A stretch of 64,000 nt of DNA from an uncultured beta proteobacterium. GTDB taxonomy: Bacteria > Pseudomonadota > Gammaproteobacteria > Burkholderiales > Burkholderiaceae. The position numbers and the translations under genes were made by a program. Below, in pieces: positions 23,351 to 39,417 of the stretch; the first letter of the stretch is position 1, and the number at the start of each line of letters is the position of its first letter. The notes below the pieces were generated by a model. It was given only the letters and a program-made list of their open reading frames with translations, was not told the DNA's origin and made no database searches. The stretch is from positions 1,167,706-1,231,705 of the forward strand of contig CAWDLJ010000004.1 in assembly GCA_963803225.1 (NCBI GenBank), given 5' to 3'.

Positions 23351-23622
23351 GCTCAGCCGCTCAGCCGCTCAGCCGCTCAGCCGCTCAGCCGCTCAGCCGC
23401 TCAGCCGCTCAGCCGCTCAGCCGCTCAGACGCTCAGACGCTCAGACGCTCAGACGCTCAGACGCTCAGACGCTCAGACGCTCAGACGCTCAGACGCTCAG
23501 ACGCTCAGACGCTCAGACGCTCAGACGCTCAGACGCTCAGACGCTCAGACGCTCAGACGCTCAGACGCTCAGACGCTCAGACGCTCAGACGCTCAGACGC
23601 TCAGACGCTCAGACGCTCAGAC
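23351..23622. repeat. 8-bp VNTR: (GCTCAGCC)x9 followed by (GCTCAGAC)x25
   Basis: Counted directly: 23351-23422 and 23423-23622, 272 bp, no spacers. Confidence 0.98.
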
Positions 23623-24649: not shown

Positions 24650-24668
24650 TGGTCCCCCTGACAGGAAT
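24650..24668. repeat. Distal att site (duplicated tRNA 3' end)
   Basis: Exact 19-bp match to 31056-31074. Confidence 0.95.
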
Positions 24669-24779
24669 TTTGGTCCCTGTTTCGCTCCTAGGGGCCGTGG
24701 TGGTCCGCAGCCCTGAAACCCAAGCCTATCAATCCTCACAGCCCTAGTCAATCCCTGAGGGTCTGAGGACTCACATCGG

Positions 24780-24817
24780 CCCGTTGGTACAGCCAGAGGT
24801 CACCCGTTGGTACAGTC
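24780..24817. repeat. Putative integrase arm-type sites, left arm
   Basis: CCCGTTGGTACAG at 24780 and 24803; the same core recurs at the right end. Confidence 0.6.
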
Positions 24818-25230
24818 AATATATTAGGGACATAAGGGGTCCACGGATACCGGGCGCTCCCCCCTGGGGGTCACCCTTTGGGCGCGAAGGCCCCCCACTT
24901 CCAAGCAGTCGCTACAGAAAGTCCCCAACTAGGCCCCGGCCCCCCTGGGGGTCCCGTTATAGGAAAAGAGGTCCCCCCTTGTCCGCTGGGTTCCATGGGG
25001 AAAAGTCCAAATCGAGTATTACGATTCCGTAAGGTCTTTGGAATTCCCACGGGGGGCACTCTCACGACGAGCGTCCAACAACAACGAACAACTCGAAGGT
25101 TTAACACTTTCGTTGAAGTGGGTGCCGGGCAGTACTTTAGGTACCGGTACCTCGCCCCGCATGGATTCAAGATCGGTTTGAAAAATTCCAACGCGCTACT
25201 CCTCCACTCAAGCAGTCGGACCGAGCTTCC

Positions 25231-25710
25231 TCATTGCGCCCGAAGTAGCTTCGTCTTCTGCGCCTGAAACTCTGCGTCCGTGATGACCCCTTCATCCTTC
25301 AGCGCCTTGAGCTTTTCGAGGTTCGTATAAAGGTCGCCACTTTGCTGGCGTGGCTCAAGCCCCTTTACAGTCTCGTTGACCTCTAAATGTTGGGTTGGCG
25401 GCCTCGCGCTATCGAAATCTCCCTTCTTCCCGTAGCTCACTACACGCCCATTTCTGATTGCGATGAAGTAGTCATCGGGGAAGTTGCCGTCAGCAGCTAT
25501 GACCGTCTTTACCCAGCGATACTGGAGATACTCTAGGTCACCACTGGCAGAAATCGACTTTGGCTCGCCCAATGTGTGGATGACCTCATCTCGCGTCATA
25601 CCAACCGAGACTTTGTTTAGTTGGTCGGCCGTGCCAAAGATCATTGCCATGCAGCCAGTCAGCAAAACCGCCGCGCTACATAGCAGTGCCGTTATCAGTG
25701 TCCTTCTCAT
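25231..25710 (-). CDS. Lipoprotein: SmpA/BamE-like domain + C-terminal SHOCT
   Basis: Lipobox LTGC, VGMTRDEVIHTLGEP, LEKLKALKDEGVITDAEFQAQKTKLL. Confidence 0.82.
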   Translation of the reverse strand: MRRTLITALLCSAAVLLTGCMAMIFGTADQLNKVSVGMTRDEVIHTLGEPKSISASGDLEYLQYRWVKTVIAADGNFPDDYFIAIRNGRVVSYGKKGDFDSARPPTQHLEVNETVKGLEPRQQSGDLYTNLEKLKALKDEGVITDAEFQAQKTKLLRAQ

Positions 25711-25813
25711 GCCAACCTCGTTCCTTCGTTGTTTGAATTGACCGCGCGACACTCATGGGAATAGGGGCGCGTCCGAAGACACCGGGCAGGCCCCTCACGC
25801 GCACCACGGTCGA

Positions 25814-26152
25814 TTACATGGCCTTCAAGATTTCCTGTTTCTTCGCGGCGTATTCTTTTTCCGTGATCAGCCCTTGCTTGTACATGCTGCTTAGCTCAGC
25901 GAGCTTCTGAGCAGAGGGTGTGGCAGTCACGACAGGCTGGGCTGCGGGGCAAGACCCAGCGCATACCTTCAGCGATTCATTGCAGTGAATTTGTTCCGCT
26001 ATCGGAAAGAGCTTGAATCCCGTGGTGCAGGTCGAGTACTCCGATGAGCAACGTTGAGCGCAGGTTGAATCGAGCTTGCTTAGATCGAGGTCAGGAGCCG
26101 ATACGCAGCCGGTCAGCGCCGTCAAGAGGACGGCAATAGTCAATCTCTTCAT
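25814..26152 (-). CDS. Lipoprotein: six-Cys domain + C-terminal SHOCT
   Basis: Lipobox LTGC, C-x3-C-x6-C...C-x6-C-x3-C, LAELSSMYKQGLITEKEYAAKKQEIL. Confidence 0.8.
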   Translation of the reverse strand: MKRLTIAVLLTALTGCVSAPDLDLSKLDSTCAQRCSSEYSTCTTGFKLFPIAEQIHCNESLKVCAGSCPAAQPVVTATPSAQKLAELSSMYKQGLITEKEYAAKKQEILKAM

Positions 26153-26294
26153 CAATTCCCCGAATGCGGTCTTTTGGCTTTTTGTCTGGGCGCTAGCCCA
26201 TAGGGACCCCGTGGCGGGACCCCGCAACATTCTAAGGGACGACTGCAGGAAGGTGTGCCGGTGTTTTTAACAACGCAGCGACGGGACGAAATGT

Positions 26295-26417
26295 AGGCTC
26301 ACAAGGTATACATTGGAGCTACCCACTTTGATAGCCAAATACAATGGCTCAAAAGGTTGACCGTGTTCTGAGCTACCTTTACTATTGAGCCATACAAGTT
26401 TTGAGCCACTTAGCTCA
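26295..26417. promoter_or_regulatory. res-like site upstream of the resolvase
   Basis: Six G(G/A)CTCA/TGAGC(C/T)A half-sites, including a perfect inverted repeat TGGCTCAAAA (26345-54) / TTTTGAGCCA (26399-408). Confidence 0.6.
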
Positions 26418-26436
26418 CCAGACACCGAGACCGACC

Positions 26437-27075
26437 ATGAACGCGACCACCACAGCAGCGAAGACGATCACCCTGTATTACGGACGTATCTCAACCACGG
26501 ACGGCCAGACCTCAGCAAGCCAGTATGACGACGCAGCAAAGCAGGGCGTAAGCGCCAAGCACGTCCATGTTGATGAAGGCGTGAGCGGTTACCACGTTGC
26601 CCCCATGGAGCGCAAGGAGTGGGCGCGAGTGATGGACAAACTGAGCGAAGGTGGCGTGCTCTATGTTCGCTGGCTCGACCGTATCAGCCGTAACTACGAC
26701 ATGCTTTCCAAGACCATGAAGGAATTGATGGACATGGGCGTCAAGGTCGTATGCACGCTCAACGGCATGGTGTTTGATGGCACGGCAACGGATGCAATCT
26801 CCAAGGCCACCCGAGACGCAGTGCTGGCGTTCATGGCCGCTCAAGGCGAGGCCGATTACCTCAATCGTCGTGAGATGCAAAAGCGCGGCATTGCGACCGC
26901 TCAGGCCCAAGGGAAAGAGATGGGACGTCCCAAGGCCGCAGAGGCATCCGTGGTGGTCGCATGGCGCACCGAGCACGGCGCAAGTATCAAGGAGACCGCA
27001 GAACATTTTGGTATCGGCATTGCCACGGTCAAGCGGTATTGCGCTGGTCGTGCCCACGGCCACTCAGCGGCCTAA
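26437..27075 (+). CDS. Small serine recombinase (resolvase/invertase)
   Basis: YGRIST catalytic Ser, LDRISRN, GRPK linker, C-terminal HTH. Confidence 0.92.
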   Translation: MNATTTAAKTITLYYGRISTTDGQTSASQYDDAAKQGVSAKHVHVDEGVSGYHVAPMERKEWARVMDKLSEGGVLYVRWLDRISRNYDMLSKTMKELMDMGVKVVCTLNGMVFDGTATDAISKATRDAVLAFMAAQGEADYLNRREMQKRGIATAQAQGKEMGRPKAAEASVVVAWRTEHGASIKETAEHFGIGIATVKRYCAGRAHGHSAA

Positions 27076-27147
27076 GGGTCCAAGGGGGGCGGCGCGAGTT
27101 TGCCCCACTAATCACACACACAAACAACCAGCGAGGAGTAGTAAGAG

Positions 27148-27492
27148 ATGTTGACGTATGCACAAGAGCGAGCCCTACAGCTATCACCCGAGGACCTCAC
27201 AGAGTGGCGCAAGAAACCCACGGCAGAGAAGCACCGCGACATTGTTGAGTGGCGAACCAAATATGACGAGACGATTAGCACGACCGCACGGCACTTTGGC
27301 GTAAGTCCTAGCTACGTGGGCGCAGCATGGCGCAAGGCCGGTATGTCAGGCTTTTGGCGCATTGGGACAGGTCTGGATAGCAGCGAGGCCCTAAGGCTTG
27401 CAAAGGACTACGGGAGCGCAGACGACCATTGCAAGGCCGCATTGCTCCTCAGTAGCGCCTTGGAGTGGCAAACGAGCAACGAAGCCGCATAA
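27148..27492 (+). CDS. HTH protein resembling the resolvase DNA-binding domain
   Basis: GAGGAG SD. IVEWRTKYDETISTTARHFGVS aligns with the resolvase VVAWRTEHGASIKETAEHFGIG. Confidence 0.7.
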   Translation: MLTYAQERALQLSPEDLTEWRKKPTAEKHRDIVEWRTKYDETISTTARHFGVSPSYVGAAWRKAGMSGFWRIGTGLDSSEALRLAKDYGSADDHCKAALLLSSALEWQTSNEAA

Positions 27493-27554
27493 ACGCGCCG
27501 CCGAATCATAAACTTCTAACCCTGTATCAACTACCGACTAAGGACCTGCAGAGT

Positions 27555-27761
27555 ATGAGTATCAAGCAAGTGTTAATCGGGGCATTGATTGTGACCATCC
27601 CCGTGGCCGCATGGGCCGCTTGGCAGTACAAGACTGGCGTAGACCTCCAACACAGCATCGAAGTCTGCAGCGGTCCCCATGGTTTGCCCTTTCCGGGGTA
27701 CACGATGGAGGAGACACGCCGGATGTGCGTAGTCGCTGAAATGCATGCACTAGGACACTGA
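27555..27761 (+). CDS. Small single-TM protein (68 aa)
   Basis: N-terminal hydrophobic helix, two Cys, followed by a hairpin at about 27827-27852. Confidence 0.55.
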   Translation: MSIKQVLIGALIVTIPVAAWAAWQYKTGVDLQHSIEVCSGPHGLPFPGYTMEETRRMCVVAEMHALGH

Positions 27762-27875
27762 TCACACACAGAAGCGAAGCTGAGAAGCGCGGAGCGATGC
27801 TCCTTGACGCCCCGCACACACACAACACCAAGGGACCCTCAGGGGTCCTTTGTCATTTCATATAGCGAAATTATC

Positions 27876-28274
27876 ATGACGGAACACATCACGGGACGGA
27901 AGCGCGGCCCCGATAAGAAGCCACGCAAGCGCAGGACCGACAACCCAGCGAGTTACCTTCCCAAGACCGCAGACGCCCACCGGACAGCCAGGGAGCTAGG
28001 CAAGCGCCCCGGAAGGCCCCACGGGAGCCGCAACGGATGGACCAGGGAGGAGCGGGCGCTTGAGTGGGAACTGGCACGGGCCAAGGCGCGGATTGAGGTC
28101 GCATTCTATGAAGCCACGGGGGCGCTTGCCACCGGGGAAGCCCTAAGGGTGCTGTACAAAGCGATTGATCCTGATTTGTGGTCGAGAGTAGCGCAGATGC
28201 GCGAACACCGGCAGCGGCGACTAGAGGCCCTCAGGCTGACACCTTCAAGCGGCACTGCTCATTCCACATTGTGA
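27876..28274 (+). CDS. Basic DNA-binding protein, possibly related to T7-like small terminase
   Basis: K/R-rich N-terminus and GKRPGRPHGSRNGW motif followed by helical segments. Family assignment is from memory of similar phage proteins only. Confidence 0.5.
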   Translation: MTEHITGRKRGPDKKPRKRRTDNPASYLPKTADAHRTARELGKRPGRPHGSRNGWTREERALEWELARAKARIEVAFYEATGALATGEALRVLYKAIDPDLWSRVAQMREHRQRRLEALRLTPSSGTAHSTL

Positions 28275-28688
28275 AATAGATAAGCATTAGACGTGGTTTG
28301 GGAGACGGTCCTTTCAACACGGCAGACGGACCCCTAGGACCTCTCAGGCCACCACGCTACAACCGTGTTTTAGCCGCTCCCGAGGCCCCGGGAATACCAG
28401 AGGCAGGGTGAGCAGCGACAAGCCGTCCTAGCGGAGCCTTTGCACAGAAAATGAGCATGTATGCATTTCTGCGACCGAAGTGACCGAGCGCCGCAGGATT
28501 CACCGAAGAACCCCAAGGTGTTCCAAGCACTGATAACCACCATATAACCACAAGATAATCAGCGGATAATCCGGTCCAGCAGTTAAAATAGTGTGGGGCA
28601 TAATGGGGGAGATAATCGAAGATCGATTTTAAGACCCCTGTAGGATACTGGGGAACGGCCTAAGCATCTGACCAGTAGAGGAACCACT

Positions 28689-28707
28689 CTAGATGACCTA
28701 CTATAGG
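28689..28707 (+). promoter_or_regulatory. T7-like phage RNA polymerase promoter-like motif
   Basis: CTAGATGACCTACTATAGG, 13/19 identical to T7 TAATACGACTCACTATAGG, with ACTATAGG intact. Confidence 0.35.
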
Positions 28708-28793
28708 ACCCCTTTGTGGTCTGAGACCCTTGCTGGTATTGACCTACAGCGCTTTGATAGTAGACCATTTGCTTTGTAGACCATCTCTGTTAC

Positions 28794-28909
28794 CCTAAAC
28801 CTAAGGTTCCTAAGGAATCTAAGGAAGTACTAGGGATTCTTAGGAAGTACCTAGGTATTATTTATGTATAAGTAAGGTACAACCTTAGTACCTCCTTGGA
28901 ATCCTAAGG
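28794..28909. repeat. Degenerate CTAAGG/CTAGG array
   Basis: CCTAAAC 28794; CTAAGG 28801, 28810, 28819; CTAGGG 28830; CTTAGG 28839; CCTAGG 28850; CCTAAGG 28903. Confidence 0.75.
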
Positions 28910-28972
28910 TAACCAGTAGAGTCCCTAGATTATCTCTGGTAGAAACATCATTGATAATAACTCAGGAGTAAA

Positions 28973-29030
28973 TCCATGGGTCCATGGGTCCATGGGTCCA
29001 TGGGTCCATGGGTCCATGGGTCCATGGGTC
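28973..29030. repeat. (TCCATGGG)x7 tandem repeat
   Basis: Counted directly; each unit contains the palindrome CCATGG. Confidence 0.97.
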
Positions 29031-29071
29031 ACCGAGGGGTCCAGACAGCCTCAGAAGGGCCACCTGTCCAG

Positions 29072-29148
29072 AGGCCCCTAGAAGCCGCTGGAGACCTCTG
29101 GGCACCCCTACATACCTCCAAGGGTCAACCCGCGGCTTCTAGGGGCCT
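29072..29148. repeat. Perfect 17-bp inverted repeat, 43-nt spacer
   Basis: AGGCCCCTAGAAGCCGC (29072-88) / GCGGCTTCTAGGGGCCT (29132-48). Confidence 0.95.
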
Positions 29149-29308
29149 ATAGAGAGGTCAGAAAGGCATTCCTTGGCGGGGGCCTAACCTCACTTTCACT
29201 CTGCAGCCCAACTTTGGACGTTTTCGGTCCTCCGAGACGCATCCGAGGGTCCCCGAGATGCCGGGTAGGTCAATAGTGGTCCGTGGGGTTTTATTATCCC
29301 GTGCGTTG

Positions 29309-29384
29309 ATTATCTCGGTCCCATTATCTCAGCCCCATTATCTCAGCCCCATTATCTCAGCCCCATTATCTCGGTCCCATTATC
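29309..29384. repeat. 14-bp tandem repeat x5 plus a partial copy, ATTATCTC(GGTCCC/AGCCCC)
   Basis: Units at 29309, 29323, 29337, 29351, 29365; partial at 29379. Confidence 0.95.
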
Positions 29385-29468
29385 GGGGGCTAGTTTATCC
29401 GAGGGATGGTCGAGGTCGTAAGACCGATTAACTCCCAAGTAACTCCCACGGACAAACCAGGCAGATAA

Positions 29469-30923
29469 TCACTCCTCCAGGTGTTTCTCCAATACCGCAG
29501 CCTTATTAATCCACTCAGCCAAAACAGTTAATGGATAACCAGTCCCGTAACTCGCTCCAACCCCAGGTGTTGAATGACCGAGTATTGCGTCCTGTATTGA
29601 ATCAGGGCATTGGGCGGCGCGAAGCCGGTCCTTGAGACCATGGCGCAGGGAGTGATTACCCAGCTTGGTGCCCATTAGGCCGTCCTGGGCCCTAACCCAC
29701 TTGACCAGTGAGGCGCTGACCGAATCATTCTTACCGGCGCGACCGGGGAATAAGGGGCACCGCTCGCTGGTCACAGCAAGCTGTTCCGCGCTTCCTAGCT
29801 CATTGGCATCCGCACTCAGCCCGAGCGCCACCTTAGCGGCCTCCACGGCCCGAGGACTCAGCGGCACCACGCGGGTAGACCCAGGGGTCTTGAGGGACCG
29901 CCACGGATGCCCTTGGATTCTCAGGGACGCCAGGGGGCCTGACAGGTCGAGGTCCGCAGCAGCAAGACCGACTATCTCAGCCAACCGTGCGCCGGTCTCA
30001 GCCACCAGCGTGAGAATGCAGCGCAGGGGGTCAAGGCCCTTGGTCTCAGACCAGTGGTCTAACGCCGCATACAGGTGCCGGTACTGATCAACGGTGAAGG
30101 TCTCCCGCTCCTTGGCGTCCTTGCCCTGGTCCGGTATCTCCACCTGGGCGAACACGTTCTCAATCCTGAATTCATTCTCTTTGATGGCACGCCCGAAGGC
30201 CGCACGTAGGGTGGTGAGGTAACGCCCTACAGTGGTGGTCGAGACCGCCTTACCGCCTAGCGAGCCACGGCGAGGGTGCCTCTCAGCGTGCCCGCCCTCT
30301 AGCAGCCACACCACAAAACCATTCACGTCCGGACGCCGCACCTTGCGCATGTCCCTATCACCCTCGAGGTACGCGACCAGATACCCAAACACAAGCCGTG
30401 CGTCTTTCTCGGTCGATGGCCTGGCCGTGATGTATTGATCGAGACAGTCGGTGAGGGTGAATGGTGTGCGGCCCTGGTACGCCTGCAGGGCGGCGCGGTG
30501 CGCTGGCGGTAGGTTCCGGTCCAGTTCCTGGGGCGTGGCCTCCGTGGCCTCTCTCAAGTGGGGCGGTAGCTGGGCCTCCAACATGTCCTCAAAGGCCCAC
30601 CGTGCGCCGTCCTCAGACTCCTTGAGGTCCACGGGGTCTGTGCCACGCCCGACCAGTAGCCGGTGAGCCTGATCCCTGATAGGCACAGGGGCGGGGTTCC
30701 GAGGAGTGCCACTCCGTGCCTCTCTCAGCGCCTCCCACGCCTGGTCCTGTGCGGTGACATGATCGGCAATCAACCGTGCCGCCTGCCGGGGGTCTCGAGT
30801 CCCAAGGGAGAACTGTATCCACGTCTTGCCGACCACGGACACCAGGTCCTTGGGGACCTTACGCTTGAACCAGAGGGACGCCGTACCGGGTCTAGACCAC
30901 AGATAGCGGATTGACACAGACAT
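29469..30923 (-). CDS. Tyrosine integrase with N-terminal DUF6538-like arm domain
   Basis: TGARLAEI, SLKTPGSTRVVP, HSLRH, LGH, YG-x-GY; N-terminus WFKRKVPKDL...SLGTRD. Confidence 0.93.
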   Translation of the reverse strand: MSVSIRYLWSRPGTASLWFKRKVPKDLVSVVGKTWIQFSLGTRDPRQAARLIADHVTAQDQAWEALREARSGTPRNPAPVPIRDQAHRLLVGRGTDPVDLKESEDGARWAFEDMLEAQLPPHLREATEATPQELDRNLPPAHRAALQAYQGRTPFTLTDCLDQYITARPSTEKDARLVFGYLVAYLEGDRDMRKVRRPDVNGFVVWLLEGGHAERHPRRGSLGGKAVSTTTVGRYLTTLRAAFGRAIKENEFRIENVFAQVEIPDQGKDAKERETFTVDQYRHLYAALDHWSETKGLDPLRCILTLVAETGARLAEIVGLAAADLDLSGPLASLRIQGHPWRSLKTPGSTRVVPLSPRAVEAAKVALGLSADANELGSAEQLAVTSERCPLFPGRAGKNDSVSASLVKWVRAQDGLMGTKLGNHSLRHGLKDRLRAAQCPDSIQDAILGHSTPGVGASYGTGYPLTVLAEWINKAAVLEKHLEE

Positions 30924-30954
30924 GATGTTGCTGACACGAATGACGGGCATCGGA

Positions 30955-30985
30955 TTGGTACAGTCGTAGGTACAGTTCTAGGTAC
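30955..30985. repeat. Putative integrase arm-type sites, right arm
   Basis: TTGGTACAGTC 30955, AGGTACAGT 30968, AGGTAC 30980. Confidence 0.6.
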
Positions 30986-31055
30986 GCTACAGACTACCTT
31001 GAGACCCTTGGAGCCTTGCTGGGCGGTACTTTCAGCCCGATTGGGGCCTTGTTCC

Positions 31056-31130
31056 TGGTCCCCCTGACAGGAATCGAACCTGTATCTAGCGCTTAGGAGG
31101 CACTTGTTCTATCCATTGAACTACAGGGAG
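31056..31130 (-). tRNA. tRNA-Arg(CCT)
   Basis: Cloverleaf with CTCCCTG/CAGGGGG acceptor stem, CT-CCT-AA anticodon loop, GTTCGATTC T-loop, encoded CCA. Confidence 0.97.
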
Positions 31131-36391: not shown

Positions 36392-38716
<2,325 letters not shown>

Positions 38717-38958: not shown

Positions 38959-39417
38959 ATGGGCCACGCGATCGAAGTCGCGCTCTTTCTGCATCTGCTG
39001 GGTGTCGCCGTGTGGGTCGGCGGCATGGTGTTCGCGCACTTCTGCTTGCGCCCCGCGCTCGAAGACCTCTCGCCGCAATTGCGGCTGCCGTTGTGGGAGT
39101 CGGTGTTCGGCCGCTTCTTCAACTGGGTCGCGGGTGCGGTGCTCGTGATCCTCATCACCGGCGGTTTTCTGCTCATGCAGTTCGGCGGCGGCCATGCGAG
39201 CTGGCAATTGCACGCGATGGCCGGGCTCGGCGTGATCATGATGCTGATCTACGGCCACATCCGCTTCGCGCTCTTTCCGCGCATCCGCCGCGCAGTGCAG
39301 GCGCAGAGCTGGCCCGATGGCGCGCGCGCGGTCGGCACCGTGCGCCGTCTCGTCGTCATCAATCTCGTGCTCGGCATCGTGACGATCGGCGTCGCGGTGA
39401 TGTCGCGCGGCTTCTGA
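38959..39417 (+). CDS. CopD-like four-TM membrane protein
   Basis: LHLLGVAVWVGG motif, four TM segments. Confidence 0.8.
   Translation: MGHAIEVALFLHLLGVAVWVGGMVFAHFCLRPALEDLSPQLRLPLWESVFGRFFNWVAGAVLVILITGGFLLMQFGGGHASWQLHAMAGLGVIMMLIYGHIRFALFPRIRRAVQAQSWPDGARAVGTVRRLVVINLVLGIVTIGVAVMSRGF

What the first reader, a model, noticed from the sequence alone, without database searches (positions are those of the whole stretch)
28689..28909. T7-like promoter followed by a CTAAGG array, matching the order at a T7 right end
A motif with 13/19 identity to the T7 promoter and an intact ACTATAGG start is followed about 90 bp downstream by eight CCTAAAC/CTAAGG/CTAGG units, seven of them at 7-11 bp spacing. 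In T7 the phiOR promoter precedes arrays of CCTAAAG heptamers flanking the terminal repeat, and transcription through them is needed for packaging. The island encodes no RNAP, so such a promoter would fire only on helper infection, acting as both sensor and pac signal.
Basis: partly seen in the sequence, partly recalled or inferred. Interest (0 to 1): 0.68.

Follow-up and report, generated by a model that had tools for sequence, protein, structure and literature searches.

The report
Phage-like repeat module in a mini-island
A unique array of CTAAGG repeats sits in the non-coding part of a 6.4-kb island; the "T7 promoter" beside it is a chance match, but related islands carry arrays of SP6-type phage promoters, so the family may hitch-hike on T7/SP6-group phages.

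Summary
The CTAAGG array is real. It has 8 units in 111 bp (28794-28909); the next densest place in the 7.4-Mb genome has 2. The "T7-like promoter" at 28689 is not significant. A 13/19 match occurs 4 times in the window, 168 times in the genome, and in 17% of shuffles of the local non-coding DNA.

Both features lie in a 1.2-kb repeat-rich non-coding module of a 6.4-kb island (24651-31074). The island is inserted in tRNA-Arg(CCT) and carries an integrase, a resolvase, two SHOCT proteins and a small basic protein, P0001. It encodes no RNAP, terminase, capsid or Rep protein.

P0001 defines a rare family of small Paraburkholderia and soil elements with variable defence cargo. All of them keep a long non-coding stretch after the P0001 gene. 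In the relatives this stretch holds up to 12 or more co-oriented units that match the SP6 promoter, up to 19/23 (0 of 300 shuffles). A consensus built only from these units retrieves SP6's own promoters.

The window's array is homologous to an array in relative L007. Reverse-complemented, it resembles the CCTTAGT array beside SP6's terminal repeat. CCTAAGG also occurs twice in T7's right-end array.

No Burkholderiales T7-like phage or prophage examined has such promoters or arrays, and the window's own units are degenerate. The function is inferred, not shown.

The parts
24651..24669 (+). attL: 19-bp direct repeat TGGTCCCCCTGACAGGAAT, a copy of the tRNA-Arg 3' end
   Evidence: identical to 31056-31074
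24782..24820 (+). Two arm-type repeats CCCGTTGGTACAG
   Evidence: the same GGTACAG motif lies next to attR and in L002
25231..26230 (-). Two SHOCT-domain proteins (25231-25752 and 25814-26230), the island's cargo
   Evidence: PF09851; no PADLOC hit
26401..27075 (+). Small serine recombinase (resolvase/invertase)
   Evidence: PF00239, phrog_125; the gene is syntenic in all relatives
27148..27761 (+). Two small ORFs: 114 aa (27148-27492) and 98 aa (27465-27761), the second with a hydrophobic stretch that may span the membrane (read by eye)
27876..28274 (+). P0001: 132-aa basic protein with invariant RGPDKKPRKRRTDNPAxYLP and GSRNGW motifs; marker of the element family
28275..28530 (+). Conserved non-coding leader (AAGCATTAG..GTCTTT..AACA; CGCAGGATTCACCG.AGAACCC.AGGTG)
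   Evidence: alignment with L003, L004, L006, L007 and L009
28532..28616 (+). Left cluster of GATAAY boxes (4, plus one ATATAAC) at 11-bp spacing
28619..28795 (+). Degenerate co-oriented promoter-like units ending in xTAGRx (28640, 28675, 28703, 28760, 28776); the unit at 28619-28650 is the clearest homologue of the relatives' SP6-like units
28689..28711 (+).
   Evidence: chance level; one of the xTAGRx units
28794..28909 (+). CTAAGG array: seven units on the left arm, an AT-rich centre (28845-28874), and a right arm of CCTTAG / CCTTGG / CCTAAGG
28929..28958 (.). ATTATC-N18-GATAAT inverted repeat
28973..29030 (+). (TCCATGGG)x7 perfect 8-bp tandem repeat; the CCATGGG motif also occurs as single copies in the relatives' repeat units
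29062..29158 (.). 30-bp GC-rich inverted repeat (87% complementary, 37 nt between the arms)
29293..29398 (+). Right cluster of RTTATC boxes, including five 14-bp tandem repeats ATTATCTCAGCCCC; inverted relative to the left cluster
29469..30950 (-). Tyrosine integrase (DUF6538 + Phage_integrase)
   Evidence: 64% identical to the integrase of L002, which sits at the same tRNA
30955..30990 (+). Three arm-type repeats GGTACAGTC / GGTACAGTT / GGTACGCTA at 12-bp spacing
31056..31130 (-). tRNA-Arg(CCT); its 3' end (31056-31074) is attR

Best explanation
The stretch 28689-28909 is one segment of a 1.2-kb cis-acting, non-coding module. The module belongs to a 6.4-kb integrative element that encodes no replication, packaging or RNAP genes.

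Its vocabulary is that of the non-coding control DNA of T7/SP6-group podophages. It has co-oriented single-subunit-RNAP-promoter-like units, which are degenerate in this copy but clear SP6-type units in homologous elements. These are followed by an array of CCTAAGG/CCTTAG heptamers, like the arrays that flank the terminal repeats of T7 and SP6.

Inferred mechanism, none of it shown. When a podophage of this group infects, its RNAP fires at the units. This transcribes the module and, in relatives, the downstream Zn-ribbon and EndoVII-like genes, and it primes phage-type replication. The heptamer array, with its AT-rich centre, then acts as the site where the excised element is processed or packaged, or where its DNA is opened. 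The element would thus behave like a natural T7-type phagemid or satellite. P0001, the only strongly conserved protein, is a likely architectural DNA binder of the AT-rich boxes.

The 'promoter' at 28689 is just one weak member of the unit series, not a T7 promoter.
For: Shown:
- The array is unique in the genome.
- It is homologous over about 100 bp to an array in relative L007, which likewise follows the promoter-like units.
- The P0001 gene followed by a long non-coding stretch is conserved in L003, L004, L006, L007, L009 and L160.
- The relatives' units are strictly co-oriented: 20 of 20 lie on the plus strand and none on the minus strand.
- The units match the SP6 promoter at 17-19/23 in L006, L007 and L160, which 0 of 300 shuffles reach.
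- SP6's own promoters were confirmed in NC_004831.
- A consensus derived only from the units hits SP6 7 times forward, 0 reverse and 0 in the control. It hits 0-1 times in T7 and in seven Burkholderiales Autographiviridae.
- The window's array, reverse-complemented, aligns to SP6's post-terminal-repeat CCTTAGT array with score 31 against 18.6+-2.8 in shuffles. This is the reciprocal best hit in the 64-kb window.
- T7's right-end array contains CCTAAGG twice, about 290-320 bp downstream of phiOR.
- The island has no RNAP, terminase, capsid or Rep gene.
- Relatives carry anti-phage cargo typical of satellites: PD-Lambda-5, AbiJ-like and NucC-like proteins.

Precedent: plasmids carrying only a T7 origin, pac signal and terminal repeat are replicated, packaged and transduced by T7 (PMC13236587).
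Against: - The window's own units do not score with the relatives' unit matrix. The best score in the island is 8 bits, on the minus strand, against 13-33 bits for the relatives' units.
- Their best SP6 match is 14/23, P = 0.32.
- In the relatives' units the -4..-1 TATA positions are poorly conserved, whereas the outer blocks GAWTTA and GAAGA are strong. This pattern also fits a bipartite protein-binding site.
- No candidate helper exists. Eight Burkholderiales T7-like phages and three prophages of the genus lack the motifs. IMG/VR scans gave only chance-level single hits.
- k-mer sharing with the T7 concatemer junction is only marginal (P about 0.06).
- The SP6 array match is in the opposite orientation, and matching one array to another inflates scores.
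- No terminal-repeat equivalent was identified.
- The window copy lacks the downstream genes that relatives have, and it contains perfect VNTRs, which suggests decay.
- The comparison with SP6 was chosen post hoc from four promoter consensuses.
Confidence: 0.38

Rival explanations
1. A self-contained iteron-type site, acting as a replication origin or a partition/architectural centre of the excised circle. It would be bound by the element's own P0001 through its AT-hook-like RGPDKKPRKRR / GRxxGSRNGW arms, or by the resolvase or the HTH protein, and would be independent of any T7-group phage. CTAAGG iterons at about one helical turn flank an AT-rich unwinding centre, as in SaPI-type origins. 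The GATAAY/RTTATC clusters would be further binding boxes.
For: - Short repeats at 9-11 bp spacing form two inverted arms around the AT-richest 30-mer of the island.
- There are 14 GATAAY/RTTATC boxes in 1.2 kb, the densest cluster in the genome (15 against the next 6). The left and right clusters are inverted relative to each other.
- The module always follows the P0001 gene directly.
- P0001 has conserved basic motifs and a confident helical domain.
- The relatives' units begin with the AT-rich box GAWTTA.
- Poor conservation of the TATA positions fits a bipartite binding site.
Against: - No Rep, helicase, primase or ParA gene is in the island.
- P0001 is only 132 aa and has no fold or family match to initiators or centromere binders.
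- The invariant P0001 motifs contrast with very different repeat units between elements.
- This reading does not explain the 19/23 matches to the SP6 promoter or the strict co-orientation.
Confidence: 0.25
2. A regulatory region for host RNA polymerase. The units and arrays would be operators or UP-like elements that control the operon downstream of P0001 in relatives (Zn-ribbon and EndoVII-like genes). In the window that operon has been deleted, leaving an orphan control region.
For: - In relatives the module lies directly upstream of co-oriented genes.
- By eye, the start of the Zn-ribbon gene itself looks like a unit: GATTTATCACATTATGAAAAAGAAAG in L006, and likewise in L160.
- The window lacks those genes.
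Against: - No good sigma-70 promoter falls in the array. The scan gave only 9/12 matches elsewhere in the region.
- Twelve to twenty tandem operators over 0.6-1.8 kb is unusual.
- The region has been retained in the window despite loss of the operon.
Confidence: 0.15
3. Non-functional decaying DNA. The window's module would be a degenerate remnant in which slippage created the CTAAGG, TCCATGGG and ATTATCTCAGCCCC arrays, with no present role.
For: - Perfect VNTRs, 7 x 8 bp and 5 x 14 bp.
- The host genome also has an unrelated 8-bp VNTR at 23351-23622.
- The units are degenerate relative to those of relatives.
- The downstream genes are lost.
Against: - The CTAAGG array is imperfect and dyad-symmetric, not a simple slippage product.
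- It is homologous to the array in L007.
- The integrase, att sites and arm sites are intact.
Confidence: 0.14
4. Exactly: 28689-28711 is a functional T7-type promoter whose transcription through the array is the pac signal for a T7-like helper.
For: ACTATAGG is intact and rare in this genome, with 16 copies. The order promoter-then-array resembles phiOR followed by the right-end array in T7.
Against: The 13/19 match is at chance level, and upstream specificity positions match at only 5/11. MAFFT did not place the site in register with the family units. No phage with this consensus was found.
Confidence: 0.05

Closest known systems
T7 phagemids: the concatemer-junction cis elements of T7 (phiOR, right-end and left-end heptamer arrays, terminal repeat; Chung & Hinkle 1990, cited in PMC13236587)
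   Same: DNA with no phage genes, carrying phage-RNAP promoter-like units followed by an array of CCTAA(A/G)G-type heptamers. T7's right-end array itself contains CCTAAGG twice. [quoted passage not shown]
   Different: This is a natural chromosomal island with its own integrase and resolvase. No terminal-repeat equivalent was identified. The promoter match to T7 is at chance level. Array spacing is 9-12 bp here, but looks wider in T7, roughly 12-30 bp by eye. The host is Paraburkholderia and no matching phage is known.
SP6 (Zindervirus) promoters and the post-terminal-repeat CCTTAGT array
   Same: The relatives' units share the SP6 promoter architecture: A(A/T)TTAGG at -17..-11, C at -7 and -5, and GAAGA at +1..+5, up to 19/23. 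The reverse complement of the window's array shares the ACTTCCTTAG unit with SP6's left-end array.
   Different: Positions -10..-8 and -4..-1 differ or vary. The array is in the opposite orientation and more tightly spaced. SP6 infects Salmonella. The window's own units are degenerate.
Minimal phage satellites (PICMI, PICI, P4-like)
   Same: A small tRNA-integrated element with an integrase and few genes. Relatives carry defence cargo. The element would depend on a helper for any particle.
   Different: There is no AlpA/Fis, primase-Rep, terS or capsid-remodelling gene. The core is resolvase, P0001 and a repeat module. The proposed helper type (Autographiviridae) and the sensing route (phage RNAP promoters) are not described for known satellites in the searches I could run.
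SaPI-type or iteron replication origins
   Same: Two sets of 6-7-bp repeats flank an AT-rich segment, next to the gene of a DNA-binding protein.
   Different: No Rep or helicase is encoded, and P0001 is unrelated to known initiators.

Membership tests
T7-group single-subunit RNAP promoter (the site at 28689-28711) | 23-bp consensus with a conserved -12..-8 specificity block and -17..-13 AT-rich block, matched beyond chance | tested here: not met
   13/19 overall (5/11 upstream). There are 4 such sites in the window and 168 in the genome, and 17% of shuffles give one. Against the 23-mer, P = 0.85.
T7-group single-subunit RNAP promoter (the site at 28689-28711) | -4..+2 TATAGG initiation core | tested here: met
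   ACTATAGG is present; there are 16 copies in the genome.
T7-group single-subunit RNAP promoter (the site at 28689-28711) | A cognate RNAP is available (in cis, in the genome, or in a known phage of the host) and its genome uses the same consensus repeatedly | tested here: not met
   No PF00940 hit in the host genome. Prophages G085, G236 and G225, Bp-AMP1, Paku, JG068, RSB1, RS-PI-1, Anchaing and RS-PII-1 lack it. An unknown helper cannot be excluded.
SP6-class promoter (units in relatives L006, L007, L160) | Match to the SP6 consensus beyond chance, co-oriented and multi-copy | tested here: met
   17-19/23, reached by 0 of 300 shuffles. There are 4-8 sites of >=14/23 on the plus strand and 0 on the minus strand. 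The unit-derived consensus retrieves SP6 promoters.
SP6-class promoter (units in relatives L006, L007, L160) | Conserved TATA at -4..-1 | tested here: inconclusive
   Information content at these positions is low in the 20-unit matrix. Individual units do have CTATAG.
SP6-class promoter (units in relatives L006, L007, L160) | Initiation by a phage RNAP | not testable with these tools
T7/SP6 heptamer arrays next to the terminal repeat | An array of six or more related heptamers within a few hundred bp | tested here: met
   8 units in 111 bp. With the same pattern, T7's left-end array as positive control gives 6 in 120 bp.
T7/SP6 heptamer arrays next to the terminal repeat | Unit sequence shared with the phage arrays | tested here: met
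   CCTAAGG occurs twice in T7's right-end array. The reverse complement aligns to SP6's CCTTAGT array, P<0.004, and this is the reciprocal best hit. Orientation is opposite for SP6.
T7/SP6 heptamer arrays next to the terminal repeat | Adjacent to a direct terminal repeat or genome end of packaged DNA | not testable with these tools
   No virion DNA or read data are available, and no terminal-repeat-like sequence was identified.
Phage satellite (PICI / PICMI / P4-like) | Integrase plus att sites, small size, no structural genes | tested here: met
Phage satellite (PICI / PICMI / P4-like) | Family hallmark genes (AlpA/Fis/primase-Rep, terS, capsid-size or Psu/Sid/Delta genes) | tested here: not met
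   No such Pfam, PHROG or NCBIfam hits. P0001 has no terminase-like sequence or fold.
Phage satellite (PICI / PICMI / P4-like) | Helper-dependent induction and transfer | not testable with these tools
   Experimental.
Iteron replication origin | Direct repeats plus an AT-rich unwinding element | tested here: met
Iteron replication origin | A cognate Rep initiator encoded alongside | tested here: not met
   No Rep, primase or helicase in the island. P0001 is unclassifiable.

The most novel reading that the evidence does not exclude
A rare family of small integrative islands in Paraburkholderia and soil bacteria are natural 'phagemids' of an undiscovered SP6/T7-group podophage. They carry no RNAP, replication or packaging genes. 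Instead they carry arrays of up to a dozen or more helper-RNAP promoters, which would act as infection sensor, RNAP sink and replication primer. They also carry concatemer-junction-like heptamer arrays as a processing or packaging signal, and they ferry variable anti-phage cargo. The window holds a minimal, partly degenerate member.
Probability: 0.3. Interest if true: 0.85.

Novelty: new variant of a known kind. Interest (0 to 1): 0.6.

Why it matters
Known satellites parasitise mostly temperate or large virulent phages, and they encode proteins to redirect replication and packaging.

An element that relies only on cis-mimicry of a T7/SP6-group phage would be a new minimal strategy of molecular parasitism. 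It would use the phage's own RNAP promoters as trigger and its terminal arrays as packaging or processing signal.

Such an element would also be a natural counterpart of laboratory T7 phagemids, and a route for defence-gene transfer by strictly lytic podophages.

The SP6-like units give a cheap direct test, because SP6 RNAP is commercial. They would also predict the promoter specificity of an unknown Paraburkholderia podophage.

If the rival iteron reading is right instead, P0001 would define a new small DNA-binding family with its own site arrays.

Tried and rejected
Searches that found nothing useful:
- Island DNA against 50,697 phage and 72,556 plasmid records, and sub-regions at E<=1-10: only chance hits.
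- Non-coding module against 61 related genomes: only itself.
- Rfam: only spurious miRNA-like hits on the tandem repeats.
- IMG/VR pattern scans (CCATTATCTCAGCCCCATTATCTC, GAATTAGTCNACCNNNNNGAA, GACACTNTAGAAGAG): nothing, or single chance-level hits.
- P0001 as small terminase: no Pfam, PHROG, NCBIfam, PADLOC or PDB sequence hit. The AF2 model (pLDDT 76) has no Foldseek hit with E<0.6 in PDB or BFVD.
- P0001 or other element proteins in T7-like prophages, Bp-AMP1 or T7: none, apart from a weak gp2.5-like hit for L005.
- The module as a decayed copy of the relatives' downstream genes: no tblastn signal.
- The genome-contig scan with the integrase gave one locus (L002) with the same tRNA site and arm sites but unrelated cargo.
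- The metagenome scan gave one further relative, L160.

Readings considered and set aside:
- The array as integrase arm sites. AGGTAC occurs three times in it, but GGTACAG occurs only next to the att sites, and the array lies 2.2 kb from the core.
- Sigma-54 and DnaA-box readings of the units. Inspected by eye and dropped, not computed.
- k-mer sharing with the T7 junction is only marginal, P about 0.06.

Full report
**Observation**

The sequence is as described. CTAGATGACCTACTATAGGACCC starts at 28689 and matches the T7 promoter 19-mer at 13/19, with ACTATAGG intact.

The match is not more than chance. Four sites of >=13/19 occur in the 64-kb window and 168 in the 7.45-Mb genome. In 17% of shuffles of the local 1.2-kb non-coding DNA at least one such site appears. 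Against the full 23-mer the region's best score is 13/23, with P = 0.85.

The array is real. Units CCTAAAC, CTAAGG, CTAGG and CTTAGG start at 28794, 28801, 28810, 28819, 28830, 28839, 28851 and 28904. That is 8 in 111 bp, while no other place in the genome has more than 2. With the same pattern, T7's own left-end array as a positive control gives 6 in 120 bp.

The array has two arms, 28809-28835 and 28883-28909, that are 81% complementary. They surround the AT-richest 30-mer of the island, 28845-28874.

**Context**

The host DNA is about 67% GC, and 25-31 kb is a 52-62% GC island.

- tRNA-Arg(CCT) lies at 31056-31130 on the minus strand.
- Its 3' 19 bp (TGGTCCCCCTGACAGGAAT) recur at 24651, so the element spans 24651-31074.
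- It encodes a DUF6538/tyrosine integrase (29469-30950, minus strand), with GGTACAG arm-type repeats next to both att sites.
- It also encodes a small serine recombinase, two SHOCT proteins, two small ORFs, and a 132-aa basic protein, P0001 (27876-28274).
- It has no RNAP, terminase, capsid, primase or Rep gene.
- The host genome has no single-subunit RNAP.

From 28275 to 28468... more precisely from 28275 to 29468 there is no credible ORF. The stretch holds, in order:
- a leader;
- GATAAY boxes at 11-bp spacing;
- a series of xTAGRx units, one of which is the 'promoter';
- the CTAAGG array;
- an ATTATC-N18-GATAAT palindrome;
- (TCCATGGG)x7;
- a 30-bp inverted repeat;
- seven RTTATC boxes, five of them as 14-bp tandem repeats.

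The GATAAY/RTTATC boxes number 14 in 1.2 kb, the densest cluster in the genome. The left and right clusters are inverted relative to each other.

**Relatives**

P0001 has no family, PDB or fold match. It belongs to a tiny family: 14 clusters among 1.84 billion representatives. Among 213 species representatives of the genus, only this genome has it.

Homologues occur in three Paraburkholderia assemblies and several soil-metagenome contigs. In all of them the order resolvase, small ORF, P0001, long non-coding stretch is kept. The integrase varies: DUF6538 type in L004, a large serine recombinase in L003.

Downstream of the stretch, relatives have Zn-ribbon and EndoVII/HNH-like genes. The window lacks these, with no remnant detectable.

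Cargo differs and is often anti-phage: PD-Lambda-5 and a gp2.5-like SSB in L005, a NucC-like nuclease in L004, and an AbiJ-like protein in L160.

The first 250 nt of the non-coding stretch are alignable across the family. The window's CTAAGG array region aligns over about 100 bp with L007 3600-3700: GAAGACCGTCTTTG..CTAAAG..CTAAGG..CTAGG.AGTACCTAGGT.

**The unexpected part**

In L003, L004, L006, L007 and L160 the non-coding stretch is filled with co-oriented units of about 30-48 bp. A matrix built from them finds 20 copies on the plus strand and none on the minus strand.

Their consensus is GA(A/T)TTA(G/C)-N4-C-N-C-N4-GAAGA. This has the architecture of the SP6 promoter. Individual units match ATTTAGGTGACACTATAGAAGAG at 17/23 (L006), 18/23 (L007, with 8 sites of >=14) and 19/23 (L160: ATTTAGGTCGCACTATTGAAGAA). 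None of 300 dinucleotide shuffles reaches these values, and the minus strands have no such sites.

SP6's own promoters were confirmed in NC_004831: 8 forward and 0 reverse. A degenerate pattern taken only from the elements' units hits SP6 7 times forward, 6 of them its promoters, with 0 reverse and 0 control hits. It hits 0-1 times in T7, Bp-AMP1, Paku, JG068, RSB1, RS-PI-1, Anchaing and RS-PII-1, and at control level in four Paraburkholderia genomes.

Caveats:
- SP6 was picked post hoc among four consensuses.
- The TATA positions are weakly conserved in the units.
- The window's own units are degenerate. The clearest is 28619-28650, GATTTTAAGACCCCTGTAGGATAC, which resembles L160's GATTTAAGACGTACCGTAGGAGGAAGC. 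The best matrix score in the island is only 8 bits.

**The array compared with phage ends**

T7's record shows phiOR at 39229. From about 39510, some 290 bp downstream, lies an array containing CCTAAGG twice and CCTAAAG several times, leading into the terminal repeat.

SP6 has a 174-bp terminal repeat followed by about ten CCTTAGT-type units.

The reverse complement of the window's array aligns to that SP6 array:
- window: CCCTAGT-ACTTCCTTAG-A--TTCCTTAG
- SP6: CCTTAGTCACTTCCTTAGTAGCTTCCTTAG

The score is 31 against 18.6+-2.8 in shuffles, and none of 300 shuffles reaches it. L007's array gives P = 0.013. Used as a query, the SP6 array finds the window's array as its best place in the 64 kb.

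A second SP6 region, a TAGG-rich leader 35 nt after the promoter at 37773, aligns even better and in the same orientation.

These are array-to-array comparisons, so the scores are inflated by repetition. k-mer sharing with the T7 junction is only marginal, P about 0.06.

Bp-AMP1 and the three T7-like prophages found in the genus (3 of 213 genomes) have no such arrays. They use other promoter-like repeats, for example CTAAACCCTGACTCTCGCTCTAC and GATTTCATGACCCTCTGACAGAC.

**Interpretation**

The stated promoter is not supported. The array is a genuine, conserved cis element.

The best-supported reading (confidence about 0.38) is that the module is a cis-acting mimic of the control and end regions of a T7/SP6-group podophage, carried by a satellite-like island. 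T7 is known to replicate, package and transduce plasmids carrying only such cis elements (PMC13236587, citing Chung & Hinkle 1990).

Every functional step in this reading is inferred: RNAP firing, replication priming, and processing or packaging at the array. No helper is known.

Rival readings:
- an autonomous iteron-type site bound by P0001 (0.25);
- a host-RNAP regulatory region orphaned by deletion (0.15);
- decaying DNA (0.14);

**Novelty**

Literature searches found no satellite of Autographiviridae and no promoter-array islands. I rate the finding a new variant of a known kind, phage satellite or hitch-hiker, and note that the evidence is comparative only.

Noticed in passing
L006 2320-2700; L007 2400-3620; L160 6680-7260; L003 7850-8010: Arrays of 4 to 12 or more co-oriented units with SP6-promoter architecture (up to 19/23), in non-coding DNA of islands that encode no RNAP. 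A consensus built only from them retrieves SP6's own promoters.
   Followed up: partly
window 23351-23622: A long 8-bp VNTR, GCTCAGCC x ~9 then GCTCAGAC x ~25, just outside the island in host DNA.
   Followed up: no
window 28973-29030: Perfect (TCCATGGG)x7. The CCATGGG motif occurs as single copies inside the relatives' larger repeat units (L006 GGCCCATGGGACAAG; L160 AGCCCCATGGGACAAGG), so it looks like a unit piece expanded by slippage.
   Followed up: partly
window 27876-28274 and P0004-P0024: P0001 family: invariant RGPDKKPRKRRTDNPAxYLP and GSRNGW motifs plus a confident three-helix domain. Only 14 clusters in 1.84 billion representatives, and no known relatives by sequence or fold.
   Followed up: yes
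L005 4006-4512 and 9407-11787; L004 10452-11615; L160 10050-10970: Related elements carry a T7 gp2.5-like SSB, a PD-Lambda-5_A-like protein next to a D12 methyltransferase, a NucC/PD-DExK-like nuclease (DUF6602), and an AbiJ-like protein (AbiJ_NTD4 + DUF7014). This is variable defence cargo on a shared core.
   Followed up: partly
L002 7824-9628: A betaproteobacterial MAG has a 64%-identical DUF6538 integrase at the same tRNA-Arg(CCT), with the same TAGGTACAG arm repeats but entirely different cargo. The integration module is exchanged independently of the core.
   Followed up: partly
G085:C1 ~1.668-1.722 Mb; G236:C1 ~0.662-0.716 Mb; G225:C21 ~146-196 kb: T7-like (Okabevirinae-like, RNAP 67% identical to Bp-AMP1) prophages occur in 3 of 213 Paraburkholderia species representatives. 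Each has its own repeated promoter-like 20-24-mers.
   Followed up: partly
SP6 NC_004831 37809-37853: A TAGG-rich leader 35 nt downstream of an SP6 promoter is the best match in the SP6 genome to the window's CTAAGG array, and it is in the same orientation. Its role in SP6 is unknown to me.
   Followed up: no
L006 2750-2790; L160 7330-7370: The start of the Zn-ribbon gene that follows the unit array (GATTTATCACATTATGAAAAAGAAAG) itself looks like a unit. This hints that the units arose by duplication of a promoter and start region, or that the gene is driven from the last unit.
   Followed up: no
window 28929-28958: ATTATC-N18-GATAAT inverted repeat, 28-30 bp. From memory, this resembles the size and TTATC/GATAA ends of serine-recombinase crossover sites. 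It could be a site for the island's resolvase.
   Followed up: no
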